Virus record (IMG/VR): IMGVR_UViG_3300026473_000477
Coordinates: 15,615 to 79,614 of that record
Origin: a virus
DNA length: 64,000 nucleotides
Direction: 5' to 3' (one strand)
Position numbers and translations under genes: made by a program. This document shows, one piece after another, positions 32,142-61,327 of this stretch. The notes under the pieces were generated by a model that was given only the letters and a program-made list of their open reading frames with translations, searched no databases and was not told the DNA's origin. The stretch's first letter is position 1, and every line of letters starts with the position of its first letter.

Positions 32142-32480
32142 TTACTTCCTTTTGTGTAATCTTTTGAGGATTTGATCTGTTATATAGCTGATAAAATAAG
32201 CCTCTGGTTCGTCATTATCATGATCAAGCATAATACCCCTTGACTTAAATACAGCATTTTTGAAATGGATAAGTTCATGAAAGAAATCAGCTGTGTGCAT
32301 TTCCCTTAGCCAAATTTGGAAATAATGTCTACCTTCTTTGTCTTCAGTTTGCCAAAATCTACCATAAGCATTAAGAGGAACTTCACCAATAGCATATTTC
32401 TCAAGTTTTTTGACATCAGAGCCTAAATGGAAAATGACGTTAATATTGTAAATATCAGCGAAGAATTTAATTGTTTTCAT
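32142..32480 (-). CDS. HExxH metallopeptidase-like protein
   Basis: FFHELIH...EPEAY; start ATG 32480 supplied by the upstream mini-gene tail. Confidence 0.55.
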   Translation of the reverse strand: MKTIKFFADIYNINVIFHLGSDVKKLEKYAIGEVPLNAYGRFWQTEDKEGRHYFQIWLREMHTADFFHELIHFKNAVFKSRGIMLDHDNDEPEAYFISYITDQILKRLHKRK

Positions 32481-32694
32481 CAAGTCTCCAAAGTTTGACA
32501 AGTGTTGGGTGGATTTTAATTAAATCTAAAACTCTATAATAATTGCGATGATAACCAAATGAACACTCAATACAGTCGCCAAATCCAAAATCCACAATGT
32601 TATCCGAATATACCTTGAGTATAGGATAGTTACTCATACCTTTGTCTTGGAATAAATCAAGTAAAACAAAATCACCGACTTTAATATCGTTCAT
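32467..32694 (-). CDS. KVGD...HPxLVKLW mini-protein family member (SD-type tail)
   Basis: IKVGDF...KIHPTLVKLWRLDE. Confidence 0.85.
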   Translation of the reverse strand: MNDIKVGDFVLLDLFQDKGMSNYPILKVYSDNIVDFGFGDCIECSFGYHRNYYRVLDLIKIHPTLVKLWRLDENN

Positions 32695-32899
32695 CCAATC
32701 TCCAAAGCTTTACTAATATTGGATGTAATTTTCCAATAATACAATCCTCATAGAAGTCAAGACGTATCCAATATTTAGATCTAAAAGCATAATCATAACA
32801 AAGTAACCTACTATAATATAGGTCTACCTGTATAATCTTATCTATACGTATATCACTATTATTTTTATACATTATAAAATCACCAACTTGTATATTCAT
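32681..32899 (-). CDS. Mini-protein family member (SD-type tail)
   Basis: IQVGDF...GKLHPILVKLWRLDE. Confidence 0.85.
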   Translation of the reverse strand: MNIQVGDFIMYKNNSDIRIDKIIQVDLYYSRLLCYDYAFRSKYWIRLDFYEDCIIGKLHPILVKLWRLDERY

Positions 32900-33447
32900 T
32901 TAATTTGATATCCTTTCTCATTCATTCTATGTACTTCAAACTTAACTTTACCACTATCAACTAACCTTTTAATATTCCTCTGTTTTTCACTCAACTGGCT
33001 ATCTCCAGTCTTTACTTCAATGAAAGTTATCTGATCTTCCCCAAAATGCACGTAATCTATCGGGTTAAATAATCCTCTAAGTCCTTTAGATTCATAAGGA
33101 AAATCTCTAAGTAAAGGAGCAACATTTTCAGCAACAAGTCCAACCCTGACTTGTTCTGACCTCTCTTTACTTATTTTTTCAGCTAATTTACTTTCAACCT
33201 CAGAAAGTCTAGTGGCAAGTTCTCCACGTTGTCTGTCAGCCGTTTGGTAAAATTCGGTTAATGTATAGATCTGAGACTGGAACTGAGATACAGTAAACTT
33301 ATAAGTAGCCTCTAATTCATCGAATTTCTGCTTATAATCAACTTTTTCACTAGTACCATTAGATTTATTAGCCTCTTTATTAAACAGCTTTTTAAGCCAT
33401 TTTAACACTTGGATAATGTTCTGTAATTTAAACAAAAAGGCTAACAT
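32896..33447 (-). CDS. Holliday-junction-resolvase-like PD-(D/E)XK nuclease
   Basis: PIDYVHF...FIEVKTG.SQLS..QR.IK after a coiled coil. Confidence 0.75.
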   Translation of the reverse strand: MLAFLFKLQNIIQVLKWLKKLFNKEANKSNGTSEKVDYKQKFDELEATYKFTVSQFQSQIYTLTEFYQTADRQRGELATRLSEVESKLAEKISKERSEQVRVGLVAENVAPLLRDFPYESKGLRGLFNPIDYVHFGEDQITFIEVKTGDSQLSEKQRNIKRLVDSGKVKFEVHRMNEKGYQIK

Positions 33448-33455
33448 TTAATTTC

Positions 33456-33854
33456 CTATTCGTAAGGGATGATTAGTTCGTATCTACTTTTACTAAAGAA
33501 TCTAAGAGTAAGTCCATCTTCTCTGTCTACATTATTAGAATTGATAACGAAGAAATTATAAGAAAACTCAGAGGATATAGTTAACTCGAGAAGTTCGCCA
33601 GTAGTCTTATCCACATAAATACCATCAACAAAAGAATTCTCTCCAGAGCCTAAATCTAAACTAAAATCTCTACCAAGTAGAGTAAGGGTAACTGTAACTT
33701 GTCTATATAATGGATGTTTAAATACGCTTAAATTAAGCTTTTCATTATGCTTAATCTCTATAAGAAGGTTTGATAGTCCTTTCTCTACTGTTTTTACCAG
33801 CTTGGTAATATTCTTCCGTAGTTCTTTTACTTTTAACTGTAGTTTCTGATACAT
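33456..33854 (-). CDS. Hypothetical protein
   Basis: 132-aa ORF with AGGAG SD. Confidence 0.55.
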   Translation of the reverse strand: MYQKLQLKVKELRKNITKLVKTVEKGLSNLLIEIKHNEKLNLSVFKHPLYRQVTVTLTLLGRDFSLDLGSGENSFVDGIYVDKTTGELLELTISSEFSYNFFVINSNNVDREDGLTLRFFSKSRYELIIPYE

Positions 33855-33895
33855 AAATTGCTCCTATTAATGCTATAAATATTGGTAAAACCATA

Positions 33896-34084
33896 TTATA
33901 ACTTTCTGGTTAAGTATTTGTAAACAGCCATTCCAATAAAGAATAAGGCTAAGTAATGGTTAGCATAGGCTAGAGAAGCTCCAAGTAAGTAAGTTACCAG
34001 AGCTAGTGGTAAGAATATCAACTCTGGGAAGAATAGACTTAAAATTGCCAGTATAGAATAGATAATAACAGATTTCATATACAC
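33896..34084 (-). CDS. Small membrane protein
   Basis: Highly hydrophobic 62 aa; GAGG SD; TGGACA-N17-TAGTAT upstream. Confidence 0.5.
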   Translation of the reverse strand: MYMKSVIIYSILAILSLFFPELIFLPLALVTYLLGASLAYANHYLALFFIGMAVYKYLTRKL

Positions 34085-34217
34085 CTCATTATTCTATATA
34101 CTACACCATCAATCTTGATTTGTCCAGTCTTTTTTATGGAATCTATTGAAACAAATTTAGTAGATATCAAAATAGTCATAGCTATAAACATTGCCAGTAG
34201 TCCAAATATGAAATCTT

Positions 34218-35284: not shown

Positions 35285-35325
35285 GAAACCTCCCAATGAT
35301 GGTAACAAGAGAATTATACCACAGA

Positions 35326-36863: not shown

Positions 36864-37145
36864 TTATTTAGTCAAGAAGAATTTATAAAGTTTCTGCATA
36901 TTTGGACTTAGTAGCTCTAAATCTTCTTCAGCCACAACTTCCCACTCATCAAAAGTCTTATTAAAGTTACAGATTAAGTATGCGATATTTTTAGGATTAT
37001 AAACAATTATATCAATAATTCGGTAATTAACTCCACGAAATTTAACAATATCTCCAATATTATACATTGGACCAGGATGGATAAAAAATGATAACTTAAA
37101 TAACGCTTTGGAAGTAAATCTGAGGATTGATTTAATAATTGACAT
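36864..37145 (-). CDS. Divergent mini-protein family member (promoter at 3' end)
   Basis: YNIGDIV...LSPNMQKLY; TTGACT-N17-TATAAT at 36847-36875. Confidence 0.55.
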   Translation of the reverse strand: MSIIKSILRFTSKALFKLSFFIHPGPMYNIGDIVKFRGVNYRIIDIIVYNPKNIAYLICNFNKTFDEWEVVAEEDLELLSPNMQKLYKFFLTK

Positions 37146-37246
37146 TAATTACTCTTTATTAAAATGACAGTAACAATAATCTGTACTATTGAAATTACAC
37201 ATTGGATAATTTGCCAGAAGACTCGCTTCTTTTCATAATCAGTCAT
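37145..37246 (-). CDS. 33-aa membrane peptide (not in ORF track)
   Basis: MTDYEKKRVFWQIIQCVISIVQIIVTVILIKSN; SD and ATG come from the upstream family tail; TAATG coupling downstream. Confidence 0.6.
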   Translation of the reverse strand: MTDYEKKRVFWQIIQCVISIVQIIVTVILIKSN

Positions 37247-37472
37247 CAAGTCTCCAAAGTTTGACAAGCGTTGGATGTAATATAGTGTATGAGCTGTTGT
37301 TACCTGTTAGTATATCTAAAGATAAATATTCAGAACCTCTTATCCATTCGCTACCTCTAATATGTTTGCAACTAAAATAAAAATAATTAGAAGTAAGTTT
37401 CGTAATCCTATAAAATACTAAAATATCATTAACACCATTATAAAAGAATATATCACCAACTTTAGGCTTCAT
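37239..37472 (-). CDS. Mini-protein family member (SD-type tail)
   Basis: PKVGDI...LHPTLVKLWRLDD. Confidence 0.85.
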   Translation of the reverse strand: MKPKVGDIFFYNGVNDILVFYRITKLTSNYFYFSCKHIRGSEWIRGSEYLSLDILTGNNSSYTILHPTLVKLWRLDD

Positions 37473-37668
37473 CCAACCTCCAAAGTTTGACCAATATCGG
37501 ATGGATTTTGGTATATTGACTAGGTAGAGGAATAAAAATTGCTCCCATATTCTGGTAATTATTTATTATTCTATATGTAGCTAAATTACCAGAAATATCT
37601 ACAATTTTTTCTATCTTAATAATATCTCCATTCTGGTAAATATAATACTCTCCAACTTCAGGTATCAT
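37462..37668 (-). CDS. Mini-protein family member (SD-type tail)
   Basis: PEVGEY...KIHPILVKLWRLDE. Confidence 0.85.
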   Translation of the reverse strand: MIPEVGEYYIYQNGDIIKIEKIVDISGNLATYRIINNYQNMGAIFIPLPSQYTKIHPILVKLWRLDEA

Positions 37669-41553: not shown

Positions 41554-41555
41554 TG

Positions 41556-42557: not shown

Positions 42558-42770
42558 TTATTTAAATAATTGTGCAAGAATATTAGGACATTTTATTAAA
42601 GATTTCTTTGGATAAATTACAAACCGATCTTCTCTTTCAATGTAAATTTCCAACATTTCTGTACTTGGAAATTCAAAGAATGTAAAAGATATATTAATAA
42701 CTTGACCAACTTTATAACAGTCTTTATGGAAAATAAAAACATAATCTCCAATAGTTATATTACTCGACAT
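42558..42770 (-). CDS. Divergent mini-protein family member (promoter at 3' end)
   Basis: ITIGDY...KCPNILAQLFK; TTGCAC-N17-TATAAT with extended -10 TG at 42549-42577, upstream of nrdB. Confidence 0.65.
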   Translation of the reverse strand: MSSNITIGDYVFIFHKDCYKVGQVINISFTFFEFPSTEMLEIYIEREDRFVIYPKKSLIKCPNILAQLFK

Positions 42771-42984
42771 CTAATTTCCATAGCTTAATTAATATTGGAT
42801 GAAGTGGAACAAAGCCTTTTATGTAATTATAAAATTCTTCAATTCCCAAAGATGACGGATAAAAATCCTGACTATTGACAAACTTAAAGTAATGATTTAT
42901 ACTATAATTATTAATATTTCTTACAATAATAATCTCACCATCTCTGGGATCAATGAAAACATCACCTTTCTTAATATTTATCAT
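42760..42984 (-). CDS. Mini-protein family member (SD-type tail)
   Basis: IKKGDV...LHPILIKLWKLDV. Confidence 0.85.
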   Translation of the reverse strand: MINIKKGDVFIDPRDGEIIIVRNINNYSINHYFKFVNSQDFYPSSLGIEEFYNYIKGFVPLHPILIKLWKLDVE

Positions 42985-43186
42985 CCAATCTCCAGAGATT
43001 TACTAATATCGGATGGACTTTTCCAATAAACATGTCGTCATAGTAATCAATAGGCAAATTAATATACTGTTTATATTTTTGATCGTAGCACAAAATCGTA
43101 TCGCTGTCTATCGAAACAATATTATCTATACGCACTTCATCAAATAATTCATATAATACAACATCACCAGCTTTTAAATCTATCAC
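42971..43186 (-). CDS. Mini-protein family member (SD-type tail)
   Basis: LKAGDV...GKVHPILVNLWRLDD. Confidence 0.85.
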   Translation of the reverse strand: MIDLKAGDVVLYELFDEVRIDNIVSIDSDTILCYDQKYKQYINLPIDYYDDMFIGKVHPILVNLWRLDDKY

Positions 43187-43623
43187 AAATCCACCCCAAA
43201 ACCTACAGCAATGCGTTTATCTGAAGTTCCCATTACCTGTAACTTAACAGCTCCATAAATTGGAACTAAAGCATTTAAGCCGTATTCTGTCTTTCCTGAT
43301 AGATTAGCCGAATCTTTGATAGCCAGCATTCCAAGAGTAATTCCAGAGCCTTTGGTAATCTTATCAGACTTTACCACTAGTGTTCGATCTTTATCCTCTC
43401 TGGTATTTGTATTTTCATCAATAGTTACAGTAACTTCTTTTGTTCCATCTGGCTTAGTAATTTCCTTTCTTACTTCTCTTTTCTTTTTGTCCTCAACCTT
43501 TACAACTTTTTCAATTTCTACTGTTTTGATCTTTTCTATAACTTGCGGCTTTTGTTGGAGAAGAAATCTGCCAATTAAAAGACCGATAACAAGGCTTACT
43601 GAAACGTACTTTAAATTATTCAT
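43183..43623 (-). CDS. Membrane-anchored protein with C-terminal amphipathic beta strands (spanin-like candidate)
   Basis: N-terminal TM, K/E/V/T-rich stalk, ends RIAVGFGVDL. Confidence 0.5.
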   Translation of the reverse strand: MNNLKYVSVSLVIGLLIGRFLLQQKPQVIEKIKTVEIEKVVKVEDKKKREVRKEITKPDGTKEVTVTIDENTNTREDKDRTLVVKSDKITKGSGITLGMLAIKDSANLSGKTEYGLNALVPIYGAVKLQVMGTSDKRIAVGFGVDL

Positions 43624-43843
43624 CTAATCTCCATAGTTTGACCAGTATTGAGTGAATTTTAACATAATTACTTGACAAAGGAAAGTGACCCAGTCCGATG
43701 TGATCAATACCATTTATATAGCTTGCTTTGTATTTAAATTTATCATTAGAATATAATTCTAATATCTTTTCTATTTGAAGAACTTGCCCATTTATAGGAT
43801 TAATAAAAAAGTAATATTCTCCAACTTTTGGATCATCTCTCAT
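43616..43843 (-). CDS. Mini-protein family member (SD-type tail)
   Basis: PKVGEY...KIHSILVKLWRLDE. Confidence 0.85.
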   Translation of the reverse strand: MRDDPKVGEYYFFINPINGQVLQIEKILELYSNDKFKYKASYINGIDHIGLGHFPLSSNYVKIHSILVKLWRLDE

Positions 43844-48129: not shown

Positions 48130-48990
48130 TTAAATTATTTCTTTTCTTTTATTTTCCCCATCTCTAATACTTCTCTTGATCTGATAAACATCCTTGCTAT
48201 CAAGCTCATTTGGGGCTAATTGCTCGCATAATTGCCAGATCTTGTCCTCATCTACCCCAGACAATGAAAGTGAGAATACGCATGAATTTAAGCTATTAAT
48301 CCACATTCCTTCTAATCCAGTTGGAGCATTTCTAATGAAGAACTCAACGCTTTCAGGAATTGTCTCTTTATCCTTTCCGTACAATTGTTTAACAGTTTCT
48401 CTGATATCATCAGTTACAGTAATTTGAACGTCACTAATGGCATATTCTCTGATCTTCTCCTCTTCAGTTTTATTTTCCACTGGTAATAGAAAATCTCCCA
48501 ATTGGAAAAATCCATCATCCATTTTTGACATACAGTAAAATCTGGCATAATCTGAACATTGCTCATCAAGCTCAGGAAATAATGACATCAAATAGTCCCA
48601 AGTGTCATCAAATATTTTCTTGTTGGTAATTGTCTTGGCTAGTGGAAAGATTAGCCGATGTTTCTGATTTTCTTGGTTAAAGCTTGGACTTGGTAAACAT
48701 AAAGCACACAGTCCGAGTTTTGCCACTCTTCTTTCAGATTCCAAAATAGACAATCCGTTGTCAATATCAATTCCAATAAAGTCAGCTGAAATGAAGTTAT
48801 CATTGTGGCGTTTTCCAGAGAATATACTTGGACTCCAAGCAAAGCTCGTCACTAGTTCAATTAAGTGATCCTCATTCTCCACAACAACCGTTTCTGGTAA
48901 ATTGGGATAACTGCAAAGCTTGGATAAATCGTTCTTATCTTGCTTGGTTAGCGGAAGATAATTAGCTTGTCTATAGATTGATATCTTCAT
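48130..48990 (-). CDS. Primase-like (AEP/PrimPol-type) protein
   Basis: GIDID, SPS...KHRLIFPL, helical C-terminal domain; lies between helicase and polymerase. Confidence 0.6.
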   Translation of the reverse strand: MKISIYRQANYLPLTKQDKNDLSKLCSYPNLPETVVVENEDHLIELVTSFAWSPSIFSGKRHNDNFISADFIGIDIDNGLSILESERRVAKLGLCALCLPSPSFNQENQKHRLIFPLAKTITNKKIFDDTWDYLMSLFPELDEQCSDYARFYCMSKMDDGFFQLGDFLLPVENKTEEEKIREYAISDVQITVTDDIRETVKQLYGKDKETIPESVEFFIRNAPTGLEGMWINSLNSCVFSLSLSGVDEDKIWQLCEQLAPNELDSKDVYQIKRSIRDGENKRKEII

Positions 48991-49195
48991 CAAGTCTCCA
49001 AAGCTTAATTAATGTCGGGTGAACTTTCCCAATAAAGTTATCATTATAGTGCTTTGAATTTACCCAACAATTTTCCTTAAAATTAAAATCGTACATATAA
49101 ATCCTGTTATCTTCTTCGTCTATCTTTGTAATTTTACTGGTAATGGTTTCGTTACCAATGCTAAACTGTACAATATCTCCAACTTCCGATTTCAT
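48971..49195 (-). CDS. Mini-protein family member (SD-type tail)
   Basis: SEVGDI...GKVHPTLIKLWRLDE; TGGACA-N17-TATACT upstream at 49216-49244. Confidence 0.85.
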   Translation of the reverse strand: MKSEVGDIVQFSIGNETITSKITKIDEEDNRIYMYDFNFKENCWVNSKHYNDNFIGKVHPTLIKLWRLDEDINL

Positions 49196-49246: not shown

Positions 49247-50263
49247 TTATAAATCCTCTGATTGGGGTTTTGATCCTCCAATAATTCTATCCAACTTTAC
49301 TTCTTTACCATCTTTTCCGACAATAGTTTCTGACAAATCAAATTGGTAAGATTTAAACTTCTCTTCGTTTTGCATTAATTCCAGCACTTTTTCATAATAC
49401 ATACCGAAGTCTGCTTTTTCTTGTCTTTTTAGCTCTCTTAAGTTTTCAGATTCATGTTCAAAATATAACAAATAGTTCATACCTTCTTTTAGCTTATCTC
49501 TCTTATTTTTGTATCTAATTTTCTGATATGCAAAAGCTAGGATCGGTAAATCTGTTTCTTTTTGTACTCTAATTAGTGGCTGAAAGATTGTAATAATATT
49601 AGTAGCTAACCACTCAGCTTTACTAGTCCCAAAAGCTCCATCTCTACTAATTGGCGTATCTCCTTTTCCGGCTTTTCCTTTAGTAGTTTGAGAAGCTAAG
49701 AACACATGAGTATCGACCTCTACAGCCAGCGTTTTAAATAAGTCTACAACTGGATTATAATCAACTCCTCCATTTATGTTAACTTGGTGAAGGTGATCAA
49801 TGAAAGTAGCAATAATAGTAGTGTTTAAAGTTTCCTTAATCTTCTTAAGTTCGTGCTTAATTAGATTTGCAGTCAGAGCCTTAGAAGTTCCGTCTTCATT
49901 GTAATTTTCGACAATATAAAACCTTTCTGATATCTCTGGACAATCTCTTGTTGCCAGTAACCATTTCTCAATAATCTCACCGGCAGTCATCTCTAAAGAA
50001 ACCATAACCACACAACCATCAGGATTATTTAGTAGAATATGCTTAAAAATCCAAAGCATAGTTGAAGTTTTACCAATTCCAGGTGCGCCTAAAAATAGTG
50101 ATAAATCTCCTCTAAGCCAAGGTCTTTCTAAACAGTCCATTTCTTTTGGACCTTTAACAGCCTTTAAAATATCATAAGAAGAGGTTAAATTTCCTTGCTT
50201 AATAATACTTCCAACGCTTCTAACACCCATTTGCTTTTTCCTCTGCTCCATAAAATTCATCAT
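49247..50263 (-). CDS. DnaB/RecA-type replicative helicase
   Basis: Walker A GAPGIGKT, SLEM, FIDHLH, LASQ, KIR. Confidence 0.85.
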   Translation of the reverse strand: MMNFMEQRKKQMGVRSVGSIIKQGNLTSSYDILKAVKGPKEMDCLERPWLRGDLSLFLGAPGIGKTSTMLWIFKHILLNNPDGCVVMVSLEMTAGEIIEKWLLATRDCPEISERFYIVENYNEDGTSKALTANLIKHELKKIKETLNTTIIATFIDHLHQVNINGGVDYNPVVDLFKTLAVEVDTHVFLASQTTKGKAGKGDTPISRDGAFGTSKAEWLATNIITIFQPLIRVQKETDLPILAFAYQKIRYKNKRDKLKEGMNYLLYFEHESENLRELKRQEKADFGMYYEKVLELMQNEEKFKSYQFDLSETIVGKDGKEVKLDRIIGGSKPQSEDL

Positions 50264-50499
50264 TATATCTCCTTATCCCAGCCATAAAGTTTAACTAATA
50301 TTGGATGTACTTTTCCTATATATCTGTCTTGATAATAGCTAATACTACTAAGACGACCAGTATTTACTGCTTTTTCGTTTAATTGTCTATAAGTTACTAC
50401 ACCATCACTATCAACATTTACTATAAAATCTATCGAAATCTTTCCTAAAAACCTATACATTACACAATCTCCAGCTTTTATCTCAACTTTCGTATCCAT
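50263..50499 (-). CDS. Mini-protein family member
   Basis: IKAGDC...GKVHPILVKLYGWD; tail contains AAGGAG and a TAATG overlap with the helicase. Confidence 0.85.
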   Translation of the reverse strand: MDTKVEIKAGDCVMYRFLGKISIDFIVNVDSDGVVTYRQLNEKAVNTGRLSSISYYQDRYIGKVHPILVKLYGWDKEI

Positions 50500-52765: not shown

Positions 52766-53341
52766 TTAAAGTTCTCCACTAGTTGTTTGTTGTGTTGTTG
52801 GTTTATTCTTACGAAATCCACTTCTTGGAATTTCTTCAGATTGCTCTGGTTTAGCTGCTTCTATTCGAGTTTCCGTTGGCTTAGATCTTTGTTGGGAAGT
52901 CTCAATAGTTGGAGTTTCTAAATCTCCTTCAGTCATATCCTCAGTTGGAATAGAGAATGTTTGGATTAAGGCATACTTAAGAGCAGCAGAAAGTGCTTTA
53001 TTAGTAGCTTTGTCTCCAGAGTCTAGCCCTTCAGCTGGAATTGGACCTACTGTAATTTTAGAGCCATCTTCAGCAAAAAAATCATATTCCATCATAATTG
53101 TTACATGTTTATCAATACCAGCTTTTCCAGATCCTCTAGTAACTTCATTAAGTTCATGCTGTTCATTAACGCAACGTGGAGCCATAAAAACTCCATGTTT
53201 AGTCAAAGCTGGGTAAAGATTGTTAACAAACTGATCAATTCCTCGGAATTTAAATCCTTGAGCTTGGTTCTTTTGGTCTTTTCCGACACTTCCAATATCT
53301 TTCATGACATCAGACATTTTCTTATAAATTAAACCACTCAT
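52766..53341 (-). CDS. erf: ERF-family ssDNA annealing protein
   Basis: FKFRGID, GLDSGDKATNKALSAALKYAL...IPT. Confidence 0.85.
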   Translation of the reverse strand: MSGLIYKKMSDVMKDIGSVGKDQKNQAQGFKFRGIDQFVNNLYPALTKHGVFMAPRCVNEQHELNEVTRGSGKAGIDKHVTIMMEYDFFAEDGSKITVGPIPAEGLDSGDKATNKALSAALKYALIQTFSIPTEDMTEGDLETPTIETSQQRSKPTETRIEAAKPEQSEEIPRSGFRKNKPTTQQTTSGEL

Positions 53342-54661: not shown

Positions 54662-54691
54662 ATTATACATCATTTTCTAATAATTTGTCAA
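54662..54691 (-). promoter_or_regulatory. sigma70 promoter inside mini-gene tail
   Basis: TTGACA-N18-TATAAT. Confidence 0.75.
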
Positions 54692-54899
54692 GTTGCCAAA
54701 GTTTGACTAATGTTGGATGTACTTTTCCAATAAACATGCCGTCATAATAGTCAATAGATATCTTTGTGTACTGGTCAAACTCATGATCATAACATTCAAT
54801 TATTCTGTCATCAATTGACATAATAGTATCTATACGTACTTTGCCAAATAAACCATACATCACAACATCACCAGCTTTAAGGTTTAGTTTCGAGTCCAC
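54663..54899 (-). CDS. Mini-protein family member (promoter-type tail)
   Basis: LKAGDV...GKVHPTLVKLWQLDK. Confidence 0.85.
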   Translation of the reverse strand: MDSKLNLKAGDVVMYGLFGKVRIDTIMSIDDRIIECYDHEFDQYTKISIDYYDGMFIGKVHPTLVKLWQLDKLLENDV

Positions 54900-55857
54900 T
54901 CATACTTCCTTCCCAACAATATTTATAATATGGACACTTTTTCCCAAATGAATAGCATTGTTTTTTGTCGCTCTTTCCCGAAAACTCGCCACTCTTAATC
55001 AATTTTACCAAATTATCAACTCTTTGGAAAGCTTTTTGAAATGATTCCTCAGAAATCTTGTCTTTTATAATAGTTATCCTAATTTTTGGCTCTCTTTTTC
55101 TGACTTCCTTTTCGACAACAACATAACTTGCGTCCAAAATCTCTTCACTTTCACAATAGATTGCCAATTGGAGAGATGTACTTACAGAATCCTCTTTATA
55201 AGCCTTACTTGACGTTTTGTTATCACAGATATATACTTTGTCAGGCTCGTCAATAAAACTGCATTTAAAGTCAATTTTGCCAGTAATCTCATCTTCTCCA
55301 TTATTTAGAGTAATTGTCTTTTGGATGTCAAACACTTCAGAAATTTTTGGGATGACTTCTTTTTCATAAGCATCAATTAGCAATAATCCTTTATTGTAAA
55401 GAGAAAGCCAATTCATGTAATTATATGTTTTCTGATCTTGTAAACTTAGCTTTTTGCCTTTTTCAATGACATCTCGACATTCTTGGTAAAATGACAAGAA
55501 ATCATAAATTTCTCCATCAAATTCTTTTAACTTGGAATAATCCTCCTCTGTCAGCAAATCAGGACTGAAATCTTTCTTGGAGTAATCGCACCATTCATTA
55601 GTGGCAAGATTTTGATCTCTGGAAACTTTCATGTTTTCGTCAAAAACCTCTCGCCAAGATTTTACCATTAGTAACTTTTCATCATCAGTTAAGTTCTTCT
55701 TTTTTTCCAATAGAAGTCTGGAAAAAGCTTCATCTGTCGCATTTCCGAAGAACAATGGGGAGTCAATCTTTTTTGGTCTAATTCTTTTATTATAATGTAA
55801 ATCGAACTTTTTGGGACATTCTTCGTAAGTTGTAAGAGATGAATATGAAAATTTCAT
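54877..55857 (-). CDS. PD-(D/E)XK (RecB/Cas4-like) exonuclease with Cys cluster
   Basis: SYSSL..YEECP, GKID, DNKT, QLAIY, C...CPY..YC. Confidence 0.85.
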   Translation of the reverse strand: MKFSYSSLTTYEECPKKFDLHYNKRIRPKKIDSPLFFGNATDEAFSRLLLEKKKNLTDDEKLLMVKSWREVFDENMKVSRDQNLATNEWCDYSKKDFSPDLLTEEDYSKLKEFDGEIYDFLSFYQECRDVIEKGKKLSLQDQKTYNYMNWLSLYNKGLLLIDAYEKEVIPKISEVFDIQKTITLNNGEDEITGKIDFKCSFIDEPDKVYICDNKTSSKAYKEDSVSTSLQLAIYCESEEILDASYVVVEKEVRKREPKIRITIIKDKISEESFQKAFQRVDNLVKLIKSGEFSGKSDKKQCYSFGKKCPYYKYCWEGSMSGLETKP

Positions 55858-56064
55858 TTTTTATCCTTAATTTGATCTTCTAGTCGCCAAAGTTTTACTA
55901 AAATCGGATTGACTTTACTAATAAAAGTATGATTATAATAACTACTTTCTACCAAAATCACAATATCAAGATAAAAATCATAACAAAGAATTTCACCGTG
56001 TTTATTTATTTCTAGAATCATATCCATATATTATTACATCTCCAACTTTTATGTCAATCGCCAT
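55854..56064 (-). pseudogene. Frameshifted mini-protein family member (not in ORF track)
   Basis: MAIDIKVGDVIIYG in one frame (stop at 56002); MDMILE...SKVNPILVKLWRLED in another (55854-56027). Confidence 0.75.
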
Positions 56065-56255
56065 AATTTCCCCAATATTGGATGTATTCTCATTGTATTT
56101 CCAGATGACACTCTGATTATATCATAGTTTTCTACAAGTTCGCAAACATATTTGTCTTCTTCTTTGTGGTAATTTAAAACTATAGCTAAACCTTTGATAT
56201 TTTTGTATAAGTCGTGCTGGACATAAACTAAGTCGCCAATTTTGATGTTACTCAT
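56049..56255 (-). CDS. Mini-protein family member
   Basis: IKIGDL...RIHPILGKLWRL. Confidence 0.85.
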   Translation of the reverse strand: MSNIKIGDLVYVQHDLYKNIKGLAIVLNYHKEEDKYVCELVENYDIIRVSSGNTMRIHPILGKLWRLT

Positions 56256-56472
56256 CCAATCTCCAGAGCTTTACAAGAATTGGATGAACTTTAGTATAAT
56301 AACTACCTTCTTTTGTAATATAGTCTAACCTTAATTCATTCGGCTCTGTAGTCCAATATTCGTGTTTAAACAAGTATCTAAACTTTTCAGAATCAACTCG
56401 GACTATCTTTTCAATTTGAAAATTACCATTTCCTTTATCATATAAATAATAATCGCCAACTTTTACTTCCAT
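56248..56472 (-). CDS. Mini-protein family member (SD-type tail; likely start 56472)
   Basis: MEVKVGDY...KVHPILVKLWRLDE. Confidence 0.85.
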   Translation of the reverse strand: MEVKVGDYYLYDKGNGNFQIEKIVRVDSEKFRYLFKHEYWTTEPNELRLDYITKEGSYYTKVHPILVKLWRLDE

Positions 56473-56473
56473 A

Positions 56474-58142: not shown

Positions 58143-58171
58143 ATTTTACTCGTTTTCAAACAGCTTGTCAA
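58143..58171 (-). promoter_or_regulatory. sigma70 promoter inside mini-gene tail
   Basis: TTGACA-N17-TAAAAT. Confidence 0.8.
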
Positions 58172-58385
58172 GTTGCCAGAGTTTTACTAATGTTGGATGA
58201 ATTTTAATTAAACTATTGCTAACAATATATCGACAAAAGCTTTCTAATGGTGCTTCGCTGATACCAACATAGGACATACAAGAAAGTTTATACTTATATA
58301 AAACAGCATCACTTCTTGTGCTGATAATCTTATCAATATCTCCATGTAATGAATCGATATAATAATCGCCAACTTTTATTTCCAT
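58146..58385 (-). CDS. Mini-protein family member (promoter-type tail)
   Basis: MEIKVGDY...KIHPTLVKLWQLDK. Confidence 0.85.
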   Translation of the reverse strand: MEIKVGDYYIDSLHGDIDKIISTRSDAVLYKYKLSCMSYVGISEAPLESFCRYIVSNSLIKIHPTLVKLWQLDKLFENE

Positions 58386-59614
58386 TATTTCTTCTCATCT
58401 GGAATATAAATTACTTTACCGAAATCTCCAGGTGGCTTTTGTTTTCCAACCCCAATCCACAGAAAAGGAATTTTTGGGTCAACTGGAATGTCTGACGAGT
58501 CGAAGTCCCCAAAATAAAAGATAGCGTCTGGATTATGCTTTTTAGCTTCGTCGATTGCTGGTTGATAAGCTGTTCCTCCTCGACCTTTAAATGTTGGAGT
58601 TTTCTTTGGTTCAAACTTATAAACAGATTGAGCTTTACAGTCAGCTTCAATGACAACAATTTCGACACCATTTTTATGTAAACTTACAAGCTCTCCCCAA
58701 CATTGAGCTAAGTGATAATCTGACATACTGCCACTAGTGTCAACACAATAAACAATCTTTTGCTTTCTCTCAAATTTCTTACCGGGAGAGTAAATCCCAT
58801 ATCTTCTGTGTCTTTTAGTTCTAGTACCAATTTGCTCTGATTTTACAGAATTAGCTTGAAAACGTCTAAGCTCTTTTTTCCAATTAACTTTAGACTTAAA
58901 AAGCTCCTCGAGTTTTGCCACTATTTCTGATGGCAAATTTCCAATCCCTCCAGATCTTTCAGCAGCTTCTTTGGCAACTTGTTTAACGACTTCCTCAATT
59001 CCTTCCTTGGAATCTGTTGACGATCCCCATTTATCATGACTGTCGGTCGATGTTTTTGGGAGCTTGTCACCATGTTCTTCTGTAAACTTAAGTAGTCTTC
59101 CGTAAATATGCTCTGCTGATTTGTTCTCTTCAATGTCAACATGATTTTGATCGTATTCTCTCATTTTATTATTTAACTTTTCTATCGATACTCCTCCAAT
59201 ATCTGCCAATTCTTTCAGATCTCCAGTATTAATTGTGGCATCAGTGGCTAAGTTAAACAAATGATGTTTCTGTGCGGTGTCAACTCCAATGTCTTTATAT
59301 CTTGGAATATGATGGCAAAGAATGTGCAAAACTTCATGCTTTAATGCTTTTGCAACAAGAGAAACATCGCCTCCAAGTGACATTGATGTATATTCTGTGT
59401 CATTTCCATCTTTGTCCTTAGTCTTGATTACTTTACCTTTTTCCATTACAAAGTCAGGATTGATGTATAAATTGATTTTATCAGTGACAGAAACCTCCAT
59501 AGTTGGAACTTCTTTAGTGTAAATTTGGCGCATTTGATTGATAAAATGTGCGTAATATCTTTGCTTATCTAACAATCTCATAATAGCAAACGAAACGACT
59601 TCTCTAGCTTCCAT
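58385..59614 (-). CDS. Metallopeptidase-VWA protein (DUF2201-like)
   Basis: HEVLH...NLATD, VNWK, MIDAS DTSGSM, GRGGT. Confidence 0.85.
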   Translation of the reverse strand: MEAREVVSFAIMRLLDKQRYYAHFINQMRQIYTKEVPTMEVSVTDKINLYINPDFVMEKGKVIKTKDKDGNDTEYTSMSLGGDVSLVAKALKHEVLHILCHHIPRYKDIGVDTAQKHHLFNLATDATINTGDLKELADIGGVSIEKLNNKMREYDQNHVDIEENKSAEHIYGRLLKFTEEHGDKLPKTSTDSHDKWGSSTDSKEGIEEVVKQVAKEAAERSGGIGNLPSEIVAKLEELFKSKVNWKKELRRFQANSVKSEQIGTRTKRHRRYGIYSPGKKFERKQKIVYCVDTSGSMSDYHLAQCWGELVSLHKNGVEIVVIEADCKAQSVYKFEPKKTPTFKGRGGTAYQPAIDEAKKHNPDAIFYFGDFDSSDIPVDPKIPFLWIGVGKQKPPGDFGKVIYIPDEKK

Positions 59615-59631: not shown

Positions 59632-59660
59632 AGTTTACTATTTTTCAAACAGCTTGTCAA
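59632..59660 (-). promoter_or_regulatory. sigma70 promoter inside mini-gene tail
   Basis: TTGACA-N17-TAAACT. Confidence 0.8.
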
Positions 59661-59868
59661 GTTGCCAGAGTTTGACTAGTGTTGGATGAATTTTAAATGT
59701 ATTTTCAGTATTATAATCATGTAAACGGAAGAAAAGATGTCTAATATAGTCATTTATCGGTGTTATAGCAGAATAATATACGTTCCCATCTTTTATTTCT
59801 ATAACTTTTTCTATTGTATTAACATTTTGAAATTCATAAAAATAATAATCCCCAACTTTTACTTCCAT
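59638..59868 (-). CDS. Mini-protein family member (promoter-type tail; likely start 59868)
   Basis: MEVKVGDY...KIHPTLVKLWQLDK. Confidence 0.85.
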   Translation of the reverse strand: MEVKVGDYYFYEFQNVNTIEKVIEIKDGNVYYSAITPINDYIRHLFFRLHDYNTENTFKIHPTLVKLWQLDKLFEK

Positions 59869-59877
59869 AATTTCCCC

Positions 59878-59909
59878 AAAAAACTCTCCCAACTTTTACA
59901 TTGGGAGAG
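59878..59909 (-). terminator. Intrinsic terminator after AAA ATPase
   Basis: CTCTCCCAA-TGTAAAAG-TTGGGAGAG-TTTTTT. Confidence 0.75.
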
Positions 59910-59946
59910 AAAAGATTGATTAAAAAGGAGTGTAAATATCAACCTT

Positions 59947-61059
59947 TTATTTAACTGATCTGTCGTAATCAACTAAGTCTAAAAAGAACTTCTCATTATT
60001 GTCAAGCATTTTCATATACTCTGGCATAGAAATTAATCTAGGCTTTTGCTGATGAGTTTTGAGACATAATAAAGCCATTTCTACTGGCAAGATTTTGAGG
60101 AAATTGAGAAAACTTTCCATTGTTTTCGAGTCAACATCCTTTTTCTCTTCAAAACTTTTCATCATGACATCAACAATCTCTTCATTAATCTTGGAAACGA
60201 CATCCGATCTGATAATTCCATCCTCATTTACAAAAAGCTTTTTAATTCTTGGTACACTTTCTTCAAACTTAGTAAGAACTTCTTCTCCAGTCAAGTCTTT
60301 TTCCATTGACTTCTCAAAAGATGTCAAGGCGATTGCTGCTGAAGTTCCCACTAGTCCCATTAGCACTTCTGTTTTAATGTCTTCAGTTAAATCTTTATCT
60401 GACATTAGTTTTTGTGCTGACTCCCATGATCTACGAGAGTGGGACACAAAGTCCAATGAAAACTCTTCCAATGAGTTATCATCGACCAATGTGCTATCAG
60501 ATCTTAAAAAAGATGTGATAATATTATTTTTCCCATATTTTTCTTCCATGTATGAGAAAAACTCTTGTTTAGATGGTTCAAATTTAATGTGTAGAAATCT
60601 ATCTCCCAATGCTTTATTTGCGTTAATATCAATTAAAGCTGGATAATCTGCTGTGTCTGGGTTCATTGCTGTGACAATGAATGAGTTAGCTGGCAACTCA
60701 TAACTTCCAAATCTTTTTTCCAAGATCAATTGGAATAAAATTCCTCTAATTTCTTTCGGACAATGAGAAAGCTCGTCAAGGAAAATAATTGAGTTCGGAG
60801 TTACTGGCAAAAGTTTTGTCTTAATAAAGTCAATAGCGATTGCGTTTCCTTTTTCATCCCTGACAAATTCTGGCAAACCTTGAATGTCGCCAGAGTCGGA
60901 ATATTGACCTAAAAACAACGGATAAAAGCCCATGCCAAGTGAATCAGCCAATTGTTTAACAACCGATGACTTACCAAGTCCATGTTTTCCGATTAAGTTC
61001 GGGACTAGTCCGTGTTTTGTTGCCAGTTTGATTGCTTTTAGTGTTTTTTGAATATCCAT
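59947..61059 (-). CDS. MoxR-like AAA+ ATPase
   Basis: Walker A GKHGLGKS, Walker B IFLDE, AMNP, ALGDRF, SRRSW. Confidence 0.85.
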   Translation of the reverse strand: MDIQKTLKAIKLATKHGLVPNLIGKHGLGKSSVVKQLADSLGMGFYPLFLGQYSDSGDIQGLPEFVRDEKGNAIAIDFIKTKLLPVTPNSIIFLDELSHCPKEIRGILFQLILEKRFGSYELPANSFIVTAMNPDTADYPALIDINANKALGDRFLHIKFEPSKQEFFSYMEEKYGKNNIITSFLRSDSTLVDDNSLEEFSLDFVSHSRRSWESAQKLMSDKDLTEDIKTEVLMGLVGTSAAIALTSFEKSMEKDLTGEEVLTKFEESVPRIKKLFVNEDGIIRSDVVSKINEEIVDVMMKSFEEKKDVDSKTMESFLNFLKILPVEMALLCLKTHQQKPRLISMPEYMKMLDNNEKFFLDLVDYDRSVK

Positions 61060-61087
61060 AAATTCTCCTTTTTTGAATATTTGTTAT

Positions 61088-61116
61088 ATTTTATTTGTTT
61101 TCAAATAATTTGTCAA
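61088..61116 (-). promoter_or_regulatory. sigma70 promoter inside mini-gene tail
   Basis: TTGACA-N17-TAAAAT. Confidence 0.8.
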
Positions 61117-61327
61117 GTCCATAAAGTTTTACTAATATTGGATGAATTTTAAAAGTAGTATCTCTTTCGTAAGTTTCTAAATGACAAGATGTATATTTAA
61201 TTTTTTCCATAGATTCTGTAAAGTAAGAATAGCTAACCTTATCATTGTCTATTGCCACAATCTTTTCTACATATTGAAATCCAAAAAACCCATCATAAAA
61301 ATAATAATCACCTACTTTAATTTCCAT
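61091..61327 (-). CDS. Mini-protein family member (promoter-type tail)
   Basis: MEIKVGDY...KIHPILVKLYGLDK. Confidence 0.85.
   Translation of the reverse strand: MEIKVGDYYFYDGFFGFQYVEKIVAIDNDKVSYSYFTESMEKIKYTSCHLETYERDTTFKIHPILVKLYGLDKLFENK

What the first reader, a model, noticed from the sequence alone, without database searches (positions are those of the whole stretch)
32467..61327. Dispersed family of 16 (+2 divergent) ~70-aa mini-genes with fixed ends and a hypervariable middle
Seen: core copies at 32467, 32681, 37239, 37462, 42760, 42971, 43616, 48971, 50263, 54663, 55854 (broken), 56049, 56248, 58146, 59638 and 61091, with divergent copies at 36864 and 42558. All are on the minus strand, singly or in tandems of 2-3, between unrelated genes including helicase/primase and ATPase/VWA. 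They share a head (K/E/Q)(V/A/I/K)G(D/E) and a tail consensus K(I/V)HP(T/I)LVKL(W/Y)(R/Q/G)LD, while the ~45 aa between them are mostly unalignable. Tail codons vary synonymously (Leu CTT/TTA/CTA/TTG, Arg AGA/AGG/CGA), so the peptide itself appears selected. Established: KVGD starts are typical of small SH3/KOW-like beta-barrels. Inference: a repertoire of variable binding domains sharing one docking helix, for example anti-defence or host-takeover adaptors that recruit a common partner. I do not recognise this as a named system.
Basis: partly seen in the sequence, partly recalled or inferred. Interest (0 to 1): 0.92.

Follow-up and report, generated by a model that had tools for sequence, protein, structure and literature searches.

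The report
Tagged mini-protein family in river phage
An uncultured 80-kb river phage carries 16 scattered copies of a tiny barrel-shaped protein whose bodies differ widely but which all end in the same short helix; related phages have the same design with their own different end-helix, which suggests an address label read by one still unknown partner.

Summary
Sixteen minus-strand genes of 57-79 aa (one frameshifted) form a family found in no Pfam or PHROG model and, among 1.84 billion representative proteins, only in this phage species. The two "divergent" copies are not supported as members.

Each copy is predicted as a small SH3/Tudor-like beta-barrel followed by a C-terminal helix, the tail HPxLVKLW(R/Q)LD. 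Tail synonymous sites are saturated (pS 0.66) but amino acids are kept (dN/dS about 0.12), so the peptide is under selection.

Three new points:
- A 98%-identical strain has one extra copy. The window's copy 54663 is an exact body-A/tail-B chimera with the crossover in the His-Pro codons. A second locus carries an allele only 61% identical.
- Every tail also holds the next gene's start signals: GGAG plus ATG at +10 nt, or TTGACA in the L-D-K codons.
- Related 80-86 kb phages have homologous mini-proteins in the same gene slots, each lineage with its own tag; one complete relative has 18 copies.

Best reading: a variable binder library with a genome-specific address helix. The partner is unknown; the phage's MoxR/VWA-metallopeptidase pair is an untested candidate. 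Earlier unchecked notes of this scan report similar tagged arrays on other phage DNA.

The parts
61091..61327 (-). Family copy, 78 aa, class-2 tail (..LYGLDKLFENK), directly upstream of the MoxR ATPase
   Evidence: HMM E 5e-29. TTGACA-17-TAAAAT in and after the tail. AF2 model pLDDT 90.
59638..59868 (-). Family copy, 76 aa, class-2 tail, between MoxR and DUF2201
   Evidence: HMM E 4e-29. Promoter-like site 59660-59632. Terminator-like hairpin 59909-59884 lies just upstream.
58146..58385 (-). Family copy, 79 aa, class-2 tail, directly after DUF2201
   Evidence: HMM E 8e-25. TTGACA-17-TAAAAT at 58171-58143. Tail 95% nt identical to that of 59638 while middles are 13% aa identical.
56248..56472 (-). 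Family copy, 74 aa, class-1 tail; first of a triple cluster
   Evidence: HMM E 2e-26. The next gene's ATG is at +10 nt from the Trp codon. Identical in strain L001. Covered by metatranscriptome contig 56189-56479.
56049..56255 (-). Family copy, 68 aa, tail ends ..LWRLT*
   Evidence: HMM E 2e-15. TTG ACA (L-T codons) gives a -35-like hexamer in a shifted register.
55854..56121 (-). Frameshifted copy: 57-aa C-terminal ORF (55854-56027) plus a 20-aa head ORF in another frame (within 56005-56121)
   Evidence: HMM E 6e-17 for the C-terminal part and E 0.022 for the head frame. Head reads ..KVGDVIIYGYDSRNK*. Identical in L001.
54663..54899 (-). Family copy, 78 aa, class-2 tail; a recombinant of body A and tail B relative to strain L001
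   Evidence: L001 has two copies here. The indel is 211 nt (one unit) and the crossover lies in CATCCAA. TTGACA-18-TATAAT scores 12/12. Body divergence is 10.3 per 100 nt against 1.8-2.9 in flanking genes.
50263..50499 (-). Family copy, 78 aa, directly upstream of the DnaB-like helicase
   Evidence: HMM E 7e-28. The tail extension K-E-I (AAGGAGATA) is the SD for the helicase start, with a TAATG overlap.
48971..49195 (-). Family copy, 74 aa, class-1 tail, between helicase and the 286-aa gene
   Evidence: HMM E 2e-26. The strain allele P0022 is 61% identical with the same length. Related phages L003/L021 have a tagged ORF in the same slot.
43616..43843 (-). Family copy, 75 aa, class-1 tail
   Evidence: HMM E 3e-21. 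The tail ATG starts the 146-aa gene 43183-43623.
42971..43186 (-). Family copy, 71 aa, class-1 tail; first of the run upstream of RNR-beta
   Evidence: HMM E 4e-28. Closest paralog is 54663 (62% body identity), 11.7 kb away.
42760..42984 (-). Family copy, 74 aa, class-1 tail (TGGAAA)
   Evidence: HMM E 1e-18. The best match of its body is a tagged ORF of relative L009 that carries a different tag.
42558..42770 (-). Possible degenerate member, 70 aa, tail ..CPNILAQLFK
   Evidence: HMM E 5e-4. hhalign matches only the head. It starts at the +10 ATG of the 42760 tail.
37462..37668 (-). Family copy, 68 aa, class-1 tail
   Evidence: HMM E 8e-23. Its body has cross-genome hits in L008/L002/L003.
37239..37472 (-). 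Family copy, 77 aa, class-1 tail
   Evidence: HMM E 7e-23. The tail ATG opens only a 33-aa ORF.
36864..37145 (-). ORF with a ..NIGD.. head and tail ..SPNMQKLYKF; not a supported member
   Evidence: HMM E 0.26. hhalign probability 9%.
32681..32899 (-). Family copy, 72 aa, class-1 tail
   Evidence: HMM E 2e-28. ESM Atlas model pTM 0.72.
32467..32694 (-). Family copy, 75 aa, class-1 tail
   Evidence: HMM E 4e-22. The tail ATG at 32480 starts the 112-aa gene.
59947..61059 (-). MoxR-type AAA+ ATPase (candidate partner, untested)
   Evidence: Pfam AAA_5 and bpMoxR. Walker A and B motifs intact.
58385..59614 (-). DUF2201 protein: putative zincin metallopeptidase plus VWA domain (candidate partner, untested)
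   Evidence: Pfam DUF2201_N and DUF2201. HEVLH at residue 93 and MIDAS DTSGS at 292 are intact and invariant in 28 homologs.
52766..53341 (-). ERF-family single-strand annealing recombinase (plausible agent of tail-tail recombination)
   Evidence: Pfam ERF E 3e-21.

Best explanation
The 16 genes encode a phage-made library of small beta-barrel proteins. The barrel is the variable, probably target-binding part. The near-invariant C-terminal helix (HPxLVKLW(R/Q)LD) is an address tag read by one partner that is specific to this phage or its host.

The family belongs to a wider superfamily that fills the same gene slots of the replication/early arm in a group of uncultured 80-86 kb phages. Each lineage has its own tag.

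In this phage most copies arose by lineage-specific expansion. Copies are gained, lost and re-assorted by homologous recombination within the tag-coding DNA. Because the tag codons also carry the next gene's ribosome site plus ATG, or a sigma70-type promoter, such events leave downstream expression intact.

Shown: the family, the fold prediction, peptide-level selection, the strain-level indel and allele, the start-signal overlap, and homologous tagged families in the same slots in relatives.

Inferred: that the tag docks on a common partner and that the bodies bind varied targets. The partner is unknown. The phage's own MoxR AAA+ / VWA-metallopeptidase pair is the leading candidate, at roughly one chance in four.
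For: Family restricted to this species:
- 16 copies by HMM.
- Among 1.84 billion representatives, only this phage's own copies plus one protein from a sister strain; the 90%-cluster search adds only strain variants.

Fold:
- AF2 pLDDT 90 gives five strands and then a helix made by the tag.
- The L006 relative's family has the same topology, with its different tag as the helix.

Selection on the tag peptide:
- Tail pS 0.66 and pN 0.17 (dN/dS about 0.12), against middle pN 0.58. Codon table.

Tag follows the genome, not the body:
- Relatives carry KLSsLEiELL, TELxKALL, SPLYQALL or TKLEKvIYG tags on KVGD-headed and on other bodies.
- Tag-core identity is 0.61-0.82 within genomes and 0.02-0.46 between lineages.
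- Bodies are homologous across genomes: 17 of 42 tagged versus 6 of 402 untagged ORFs match the body-only HMM, p = 9e-15.
- Bodies 42760 and 37462/43616 have close cross-genome relatives that bear other tags.

Same slots and similar copy number in relatives. The complete L006 genome has 18 copies spread over 27 kb on one strand.

Strain-level turnover:
- A 211-nt one-unit indel with the crossover in the tag codons.
- An allele 61% identical inside flanks about 97% nt identical where laid.
- Body divergence of 10.3 per 100 nt, mostly non-synonymous, against 1.8-2.9 in neighbouring genes.

Start signals in every tail. ERF recombinase present.

Candidate partner is intact and conserved. A published analogue exists: a zincin peptidase with a small, rapidly diverging protein that has a conserved C-terminal peptide, coupled to vWA-MoxR systems (PMC7159879).
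Against: - No binding or partner has been shown.
- 13 of 14 bodies find their best match within this genome. Tag uniformity here could therefore be largely by descent from a few founders.
- The confident placement of the helix in the monomer model fits a purely structural cap as well.
- More distant phages have the MoxR/DUF2201 pair without an obvious tagged array within 10 kb (L014, L016, L018, L022-L028). The loci were fetched through DUF2201, so co-occurrence in the close group is not independent of shared ancestry.
- Tags of relatives were collected with regular expressions, so the within-genome identity figures are partly circular.
- Expression evidence is weak: only contigs from an RNA library.
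Confidence: 0.5

Rival explanations
1. Structural cap only. The tail is the folding core or hydrophobic cap of the barrel and has no partner. Its uniformity within the genome reflects recent expansion from one or a few founders.
For: AF2 places the helix with pLDDT around 96 in a monomer model. 13 of 14 bodies are closest to in-genome paralogs. The tail is rich in hydrophobic residues.
Against: Synonymous sites in the tail are saturated, yet polar residues likely to be exposed (His, Lys, Arg/Gln, Asp) are nearly invariant. The same fold in relatives uses quite different tag sequences. In relatives, bodies of 113-147 aa with no recognisable KVGD-type head carry the same genome-specific tag. Body lineages shared between genomes carry different tags.
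Confidence: 0.15
2. Recombination cassette first. The units persist mainly as selfish or regulatory cassettes, a coding analogue of T4-type PeSL elements. Their repeated ends drive shuffling and supply promoters and ribosome sites, and the protein itself matters little.
For: There is a one-unit indel with the crossover in the tail between 98%-identical strains. Tails and bodies are decoupled: 95% tail nt identity with 13% body aa identity. Five of thirteen minus-strand TTGACA promoter-like sites scoring at least 10 of 12 in 44.0-63.9 kb lie in family tails. SD plus ATG sits at a fixed +10 nt in nine copies. An ERF recombinase is present. PeSL precedent: PMC2839356.
Against: Tail dN/dS is 0.12 with saturated dS, which means the amino acids and not the nucleotides are kept. 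The HPxLVKL part has no regulatory signal. ORFs and lengths are kept in all alleles. There is a confident common fold. Slots are conserved across lineages with unrelated tag DNA.
Confidence: 0.15
3. Timer or degron. The tag marks these early proteins for unfolding, cleavage or degradation, by host proteases or by the phage MoxR/VWA-peptidase. They would then act only briefly, or release a processed peptide.
For: In three related lineages the tag ends in non-polar residues exactly at the C-terminus (..ALL..ELL). A zincin motif and a MIDAS site are intact in DUF2201. Published peptide-processing analogue: PMC7159879.
Against: In this phage the tag is followed by polar or acidic extensions of 0-7 residues. 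No radical-SAM or other processing gene is in the genome. No cleavage site is evident.
Confidence: 0.1
4. DNA-level constraint. The tail amino acids are conserved only because the DNA must encode the next gene's SD, ATG or promoter.
For: W-R (TGG AGA) gives GGAG and L-D-E gives ATG at a fixed +10 nt. The Asp codon is GAC in all four class-2 tails (TTGACA) and GAT in the ten other copies that have Asp at this position; two copies have Glu or Thr there.
Against: The most conserved part (H-P-x-L-V-K-L) carries no signal. Copies whose downstream start lies elsewhere keep W-(R/Q)-L-D. Synonymous sites vary freely.
Confidence: 0.03

Closest known systems
PeSL mobile regulatory cassettes of T4-type phages (Arbiol et al. 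2010, PMC2839356; Comeau et al. 2014, PMC4122927)
   Same: Short repeated elements carrying sigma70-type promoters are scattered among small non-essential ORFs. Recombination between them causes insertion, deletion and replacement of ORFs between sister phages.
   Different: Here the repeat is coding, being the last 13-20 codons of a protein under purifying selection. Most copies carry SD plus ATG, not a promoter. No stem-loop terminator is part of the unit. The flanked ORFs are all one protein family.
Peptide-processing systems coupled to vWA-MoxR systems (Kaur, Burroughs, Iyer, Aravind 2020, PMC7159879)
   Same: A zincin-type metallopeptidase and a MoxR/vWA context occur together with small, rapidly diverging proteins whose C-terminal peptide is the conserved part.
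   Different: Those systems are bacterial (actinobacterial VMAP or FtsH ternary systems), with FxSxx, RxD or acidic motifs, often a radical-SAM enzyme and AP-ATPase effectors, and usually one precursor. Here a phage has 16-18 folded barrel proteins and no radical SAM, and the link to the peptidase is untested.
Viral multigene families with a constant docking motif and a variable binding domain (poxvirus ankyrin/PRANC-F-box proteins; T4 internal proteins with the capsid-targeting sequence); from my own knowledge
   Same: The logic is one short constant address peptide on many fast-evolving bodies, with lineage-specific expansion and strain-level turnover.
   Different: There is no sequence or fold relationship. 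The T4 tag is N-terminal, cleaved and late-acting. PRANC docks on host SCF. Here the tag is a C-terminal helix on early-arm genes and the receptor is unknown.
Small SH3/Tudor/KOW-like beta-barrels (for example the CarD/TRCF RNAP-interacting domain, DUF2187, uncharacterised BFVD phage proteins)
   Same: A five-strand barrel starting with a K-V-G-D-type first strand. Best structural Z is 5-6.4, and BFVD TM by query length (TMq) is up to 0.69.
   Different: These are generic fold matches only (Foldseek E >= 0.005; Z below the tool's meaningful range). None has the C-terminal tag, and there is no significant sequence match.

Membership tests
Any Pfam-A or PHROG family | Score above the family threshold | tested here: not met
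   only sub-threshold chance hits (DUF2187 17.7 bits against a cut-off of 24.7; phrog_30040 E 8e-4 for one copy).
SH3/Tudor-like small beta-barrel fold | Five-strand barrel topology in a confident model, with matches to solved barrels | tested here: met
   AF2 pLDDT 90. VIA-align Z 5-6.4 to Tudor, SH3 and KOW domains. Foldseek hits are generic. This is a fold-level statement only and says nothing about function.
PeSL cassettes (T4-type phages) | Strong sigma70-like promoter within the repeated unit | tested here: inconclusive
   Consensus matches of 10-12 out of 12 in five tails. Nine other tails carry no promoter. No transcription-start data.
PeSL cassettes (T4-type phages) | Stem-loop terminator as part of the unit; the unit is non-coding | tested here: not met
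   Only one terminator-like hairpin lies near a copy (59909-59884). The repeat is the coding 3' end of an ORF.
PeSL cassettes (T4-type phages) | Recombination between units causes indels or replacements between sister phages | tested here: met
   One-unit 211-nt indel with the crossover in the repeat. Allele replacement at 48971.
vWA-MoxR-coupled peptide-processing systems (Kaur et al. 2020) | Zincin metallopeptidase gene plus a small, rapidly diverging protein with a conserved C-terminal peptide | tested here: met
   DUF2201_N with HEVLH. Family with a conserved tail and a variable body.
vWA-MoxR-coupled peptide-processing systems (Kaur et al. 2020) | Known C-terminal motif type (FxSxx, RxD, acidic, FtsH-type) and accessory radical-SAM/SPASM or AP-ATPase genes | tested here: not met
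   The tail HPxLVKLWRLD fits none of the four types. No Radical_SAM hit in the genome.
vWA-MoxR-coupled peptide-processing systems (Kaur et al. 2020) | The peptidase cleaves the small protein | not testable with these tools
   This needs biochemistry.
Diversity-generating retroelement targets | Reverse transcriptase, template repeat, adenine-biased substitutions | tested here: not met
   No RVT_1 hit in the genome. No second copy of the variable patch, and an unbiased substitution spectrum.
T4-type internal proteins (CTS-tagged) | N-terminal capsid-targeting sequence cleaved by the prohead protease; late/structural context | tested here: not met
   The tag is C-terminal. The genes lie in the replication arm among sigma70-type promoters. 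Cleavage was not tested.

The most novel reading that the evidence does not exclude
A phage-encoded 'tag and receptor' system. A MoxR AAA+ / VWA-metallopeptidase machine, or another single phage or host hub, reads a genome-specific C-terminal helix carried by 16-18 interchangeable beta-barrel adaptors. Each adaptor captures a different host or phage target for remodelling or cleavage. This would be a bacteriophage counterpart of F-box-type substrate-receptor families. The library would be reshuffled between strains by recombination in the tag codons, which are built so that reshuffling never disturbs downstream gene expression.
Probability: 0.2. Interest if true: 0.9.

Novelty: new variant of a known kind. 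Interest (0 to 1): 0.7.

Why it matters
About 4-5% of this phage's genome, and a similar share in a complete relative, is spent on one unannotated protein design that standard annotation leaves as unrelated 'hypothetical proteins'.

If the tag is an address label, it gives a simple handle (one short peptide) for fishing out a central hub of infection in an uncultured phage group. It would also provide a natural set of small, stable binders whose targets would map what the phage manipulates.

The strain comparison shows, at single-nucleotide resolution, how such a library gains and loses members without polar effects. That is a concrete mechanism for the 'hyperplastic' small-gene regions seen in many phages.

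It may also give the widespread but unexplained phage MoxR/DUF2201 pair a testable set of clients.

Tried and rejected
Tools that gave nothing usable:
- Complex prediction for DUF2201 (alignment A3) with the mini-protein (A1) returned 'no answer', score 0.01. It says nothing either way.
- The homodimer job I first wanted never ran because the server was busy, and the single job was then spent on the DUF2201 pair.
The DNA of the P0022 allele and of the 79,079-nt sister genome could therefore not be fetched, and no dN/dS could be computed for that allele.
It was redone from the stored files.

Searches that found nothing:
- blastn of the DNA polymerase gene against cultured phages: no match.
- tblastn with DUF2201: only E. 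coli phage Pollock at 27% identity.
- Tail-pattern scan of viral contigs: no relative.
- Helicase as a single query: no relative.
- PDB sequence profile: only chance-level hits to an intein Hint subdomain and the CarD N-terminus, E 0.19-2.1.
- Foldseek against PDB and BFVD, and VIA-align wide: generic barrels only.
- ESM Atlas: no named cluster above chance.
- Two literature searches for this design found no matching paper.

Ideas rejected:
- Sso7d-like DNA binder: the proteins are mostly acidic to neutral, pI 4.3-8.8.
- DGR.
- Gene conversion from an in-genome paralog as the source of the clustered substitutions in 54663: no donor within 6 mismatches of 27 nt.
- Recent tandem duplication: tandem neighbours are no more alike than random pairs.
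- The tail motif on non-family proteins of this phage: none.
- A clamp-binding reading of QLDKLF in class-2 tails was considered from memory and dropped, because class-1 tails lack it.

Laid contigs: X3 RNA-library contigs cover only parts of the stretch. The uncovered parts are not evidence of silence.

Full report
**Context.** The window is bases 15615-79614 of a 79,614-bp IMG/VR virus record estimated to be 95% complete. GC content is about 0.33. Structural genes lie on the plus strand up to about 28 kb, including a major-head-like protein and two proteins of about 1,400-1,500 aa. From 28.5 to 64 kb a minus-strand arm carries the replication genes:
- RNR alpha and beta, and a DNA polymerase with a separate exonuclease subunit
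- a DnaB-like helicase and an exonuclease
- an ERF recombinase and a Holliday-junction-resolvase-like nuclease
- a MoxR-type AAA+ ATPase next to a DUF2201 protein (putative metallopeptidase plus VWA domain)

No cultured phage matches at the DNA level. The only cultured protein-level hit for DUF2201 is E. coli phage Pollock at 27% identity. Independent river metagenomes and one river metatranscriptome hold the phage.

**Observation.** Translating the 18 listed ORFs shows the family at once. An HMM built from the core copies and run with all filters off over every six-frame segment of the window gave these results:
- It recovers exactly the 16 core copies (E 1e-15 to 1e-29).
- 42558 is marginal (E 5e-4) and 36864 is at noise level (E 0.26).
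- Profile-profile comparison aligns only the 'xxGDxxxx' head of those two ORFs.

No further copy exists in the whole record, and the tail motif occurs on no other protein of the phage. Copy 55854 is frameshifted. Its head, ending ...KVGDVIIYGYDSRNK*, lies in another frame and starts from an ATG inside the Leu-Trp codons of the preceding tail. Apart from one pair of Imm5-like genes, this is the only paralogous family in the window.

**The peptide is selected, not the DNA.**
- In the 13 tail codons the two invariant Leu columns use five and four codons, and His, Pro, Val and Lys wobble positions vary.
- Pooled over 105 paralog pairs, the tail has pS 0.66 and pN 0.17 (dN/dS about 0.12). The middle has pS 0.67 and pN 0.58.
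- The tail is therefore as old at silent sites as the rest of the gene, yet its amino acids are held. That excludes recent homogenisation as the general cause of the uniformity.
- A few pairs are mosaic: 58146 and 59638 share 95% tail nucleotides but 13% middle residues.
- The middle is not unalignable. It shows one barrel pattern, with mean identity 22% and a maximum of 62%.

**Fold.**
- AlphaFold2 on the paralog alignment gives pLDDT 90.3 and pTM 0.80: five strands, a short 3-10-like turn, then a helix made of the tag (residues 63-68), and in class-2 copies a second short helix.
- The ESM Atlas holds an independent single-sequence model of copy 32681 with pTM 0.72.
- Structure searches return only generic SH3, Tudor, KOW and Sm barrels (Foldseek E >= 0.005; best Z 6.4, which the tool itself rates as uninformative).
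- Sequence profiles against the PDB give chance-level hits.
- The proteins are mostly acidic to neutral and rich in aromatics, unlike Sso7d-type DNA binders.

**Strain-level turnover.** The one true homolog outside the record (P0014) led to contig L001. L001 is 98% identical to window 58126-54460 and collinear with it, except for one 211-nt indel.
- L001 has two copies after the exonuclease, and the window has one.
- The window's copy 54663 equals the body of L001 copy A up to GGAAAA. The crossover lies inside CATCCAA (the His-Pro codons), and the rest is the tail of copy B.
- The indel is exactly one unit.
- Substitutions between the strains are uneven. They are about 0 in the OmpA gene and the triple cluster, and 1.8 and 2.9 per 100 nt (mostly synonymous) in the lipoprotein and exonuclease genes.
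- In the 54663/A body they reach 10.3 per 100 nt. Fifteen of 21 changed nucleotides are non-synonymous, and four adjacent residue changes fall in the strand 1-2 loop.
- No paralog in the genome could have donated that patch, and the spectrum is not A-biased.

At a second locus, a contig of run X2 keeps the 48971 tail and then diverges while staying in frame. The corresponding protein, P0022, has the same length and is 61% identical. The rest of that contig is about 97% identical to the window.

Tandem neighbours are no more alike than random pairs, and the closest paralogs lie 1.5-24 kb apart. The present arrangement therefore reflects dispersal and shuffling, not recent tandem duplication. 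An ERF-type annealing recombinase is encoded in the same arm.

**Overlap with start signals.** I tested the leads from other first-stage notes myself.
- *Class 1 (nine copies).* The next gene's ATG lies exactly 10 nt after the first base of the Trp codon, inside L-D-E/D (..TTG GAT GAA..). W-R (TGG AGA/AGG) supplies GGAG five nucleotides upstream; copy 42760 has GGAA. The genes started this way are four family copies, the marginal 42558, and non-family ORFs of 286, 146, 112 and 33 aa.
- *Class 2 (four copies, W-Q-L-D-K-L-F/L-E-N).* The codons CTT GAC AAR contain TTGACA. A -10 box (TAAAAT, TATAAT or TAAACT) follows 17-18 nt later, just after the stop, and then AAGGAG and the ATG of MoxR, DUF2201, the lipoprotein or the Imm5-like gene.
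- *The remaining three copies.* Two place an SD in a tail extension (50263, 55854). One makes TTGACA from L-T codons (56049).
- *Codon choice.* The Asp codon is GAC in all four class-2 tails and GAT in the ten other copies that have Asp at this position. Two copies have Glu or Thr there.

These signals are consensus matches only. They cannot explain conservation of the HPxLVKL part, and copies that do not use them keep W-(R/Q)-L-D. I read them as regulatory information overlaid on a selected peptide. The consequence is that recombination within tails, as in L001 versus the window, changes copy number without disturbing downstream expression.

**The wider family.** An earlier unchecked note of this scan (e1-5983172) pointed to tagged small proteins in phages with a MoxR/vWA-peptidase pair. 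I tested this.
- Homologs of the DUF2201 protein (38-46% identity) sit on many contigs of 80-86 kb.
- A profile fetched 27 viral loci.
- Several of these share this phage's module order: MoxR, DUF2201, exonuclease, ERF, helicase and the 286-aa gene.

In the 27 fetched loci, small ORFs were clustered by their last 20 residues. Clusters of 5-7 appeared in ten loci, while the middle-segment control never exceeded three. The clusters are families with K(V/K/I)GD-type heads and lineage-specific tags:
- ..KLS(S/T)LE(I/K)(E/Q)LL in L002-L005 and L021
- ..T(E/D/P)Lx(K/E)AL(L/I) in L006
- ..SPLYQALL in L009
- ..(T/S)KLEK(V/I)IYG.. in L010 and L011
- looser forms in L007, L008 and L013

All of them, and this phage's HPILVKLW, fit one template: (S/T/H)-(P/x)-hydrophobic-hydrophobic-x-x-hydrophobic-hydrophobic.

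Further support for homology and shared design:
- With tails removed, 17 of 42 tagged bodies of relatives match this family's body-only HMM at E < 0.05, against 6 of 402 untagged small ORFs (p = 9e-15). Several of those six carry degenerate tags that my patterns had missed.
- The tagged ORFs occupy the same slots as here: before MoxR, after DUF2201, on both sides of the exonuclease, in a run directly before RNR-beta, and between helicase and the 286-aa gene.
- The L006 family folds with the same topology, with its own tag as the terminal helix (pLDDT 82).
- The complete 84.7-kb L006 genome has 18 copies over 27 kb on one strand, a close parallel to 16 copies over 29 kb here.
- Some tagged proteins in relatives have bodies of 113-147 aa with no recognisable KVGD-type head.
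- Tag-core identity is 0.61-0.82 within genomes and 0.02-0.46 between lineages. These figures are partly circular, because the relatives' tags were collected with patterns.

**Descent or concerted change?** For this phage, 13 of 14 bodies find their best match within the genome (expected 0.25), so most copies are a lineage-specific expansion. Body 42760 is closest to a tagged ORF of L009, and 37462/43616 have clear relatives in L008, L002 and L003. Those relatives carry other tags, so the tag follows the genome and not the body lineage. Only 10 kb on each side was sampled in the relatives, which biases their figures.

**Interpretation.** The tag is a short, selected helix that is uniform within a genome and different between lineages. 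In relatives it also sits on bodies with no recognisable barrel head. This is what an address label read by one genome-specific partner would look like.

The bodies are variable, turn over at strain level, and are aromatic-rich barrels.

The partner is not identified. The MoxR/DUF2201 pair is a reasonable candidate for these reasons:
- It is intact, with Walker A and B motifs, HEVLH and a DxSxS MIDAS motif (invariant in 28 homologs).
- It is bracketed by the three class-2 copies 61091, 59638 and 58146.
- It is conserved in the whole group.
- There is a published bacterial analogue: a zincin peptidase with a small, fast-diverging protein that has a conserved C-terminal peptide, coupled to vWA-MoxR systems (PMC7159879).

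Against this candidate:
- More distant phages have the pair without obvious tagged arrays nearby.
- Co-occurrence in the close group may be shared ancestry only.
- The known motif types and the accessory radical-SAM gene are absent.

I put this specific partner at about one in four.

**Known comparisons.** The recombination behaviour resembles the PeSL cassettes of T4-type phages (PMC2839356). Here, however, the repeat is coding and under peptide selection, and the unit includes no terminator. The design logic resembles viral families with a constant docking motif, such as poxvirus ANK/PRANC proteins and the T4 internal-protein targeting sequence (my own knowledge), without any homology. I found no paper that describes this design in phages. 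Other unchecked notes of this scan report similar tagged arrays in other phages.

**Verdict.** The function is untested. The finding is a new variant of known kinds (hyperplastic small-gene regions; tag-plus-variable-body families), with a clear experimental handle.

Noticed in passing
window 57164-58117 and 56474-57145 (-): The replication arm encodes a coiled-coil lipoprotein (signal ..LLLFISCGK) and an OmpA-domain protein. Between the two strains the OmpA gene and the three mini-genes after it are identical, while the flanking lipoprotein and exonuclease genes differ by 1.8-2.9%. This is a sharp mosaic boundary.
   Followed up: partly
window 54096-54644 and 62303-62740 (-): Two Imm5-like (polymorphic-toxin immunity type) paralogs at 30% identity. 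The first contains a long 9/12-nt repeat (54135-54349) that encodes a Gln-rich run.
   Followed up: no
window 63738-63989: Nine or more copies of an 18-nt tandem repeat lie inside an ORF that runs off the window end.
   Followed up: no
L006:4772-7446 versus window 39844-42518: RNR beta and alpha of relative L006 are 92% and 84% identical to this phage's, although the other shared genes are about 40% identical. Likewise ERF is 80% and helicase 68% identical in L009. This points to recent exchange of single replication genes within the phage group.
   Followed up: no
L015 / L017 (1249-1781, 11089-15566): A more distant phage group has a different small paralog family (heads M(T/I)KHKQ.., Gln/Glu-rich ends ..QLEEQEYD). 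Its members lie between and right after its DUF2201 and MoxR genes.
   Followed up: no
window 59909-59884 (-): A strong terminator-like hairpin (10 bp, 5 GC, T-run) lies between the MoxR gene and copy 59638. That copy therefore sits between a terminator and the promoter-like site in its own tail.
   Followed up: no
window 34763-35308 and 45650-45681: KVGD-type barrel starts also occur at the N-terminus of a 181-aa protein (..KVGDIVIHKL) and inside the DNA polymerase. L019/L020 share a homolog of the 181-aa protein (42% identity).
   Followed up: no
window 45448-45419, 62228-62200, 63539-63511 (-): Further near-consensus TTGACA-17/18-TAtAAT sites lie outside the family. The sites at 62.2 and 63.5 kb share a 43-nt repeat, so the arm seems to be read from many host-type promoters.
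   Followed up: no
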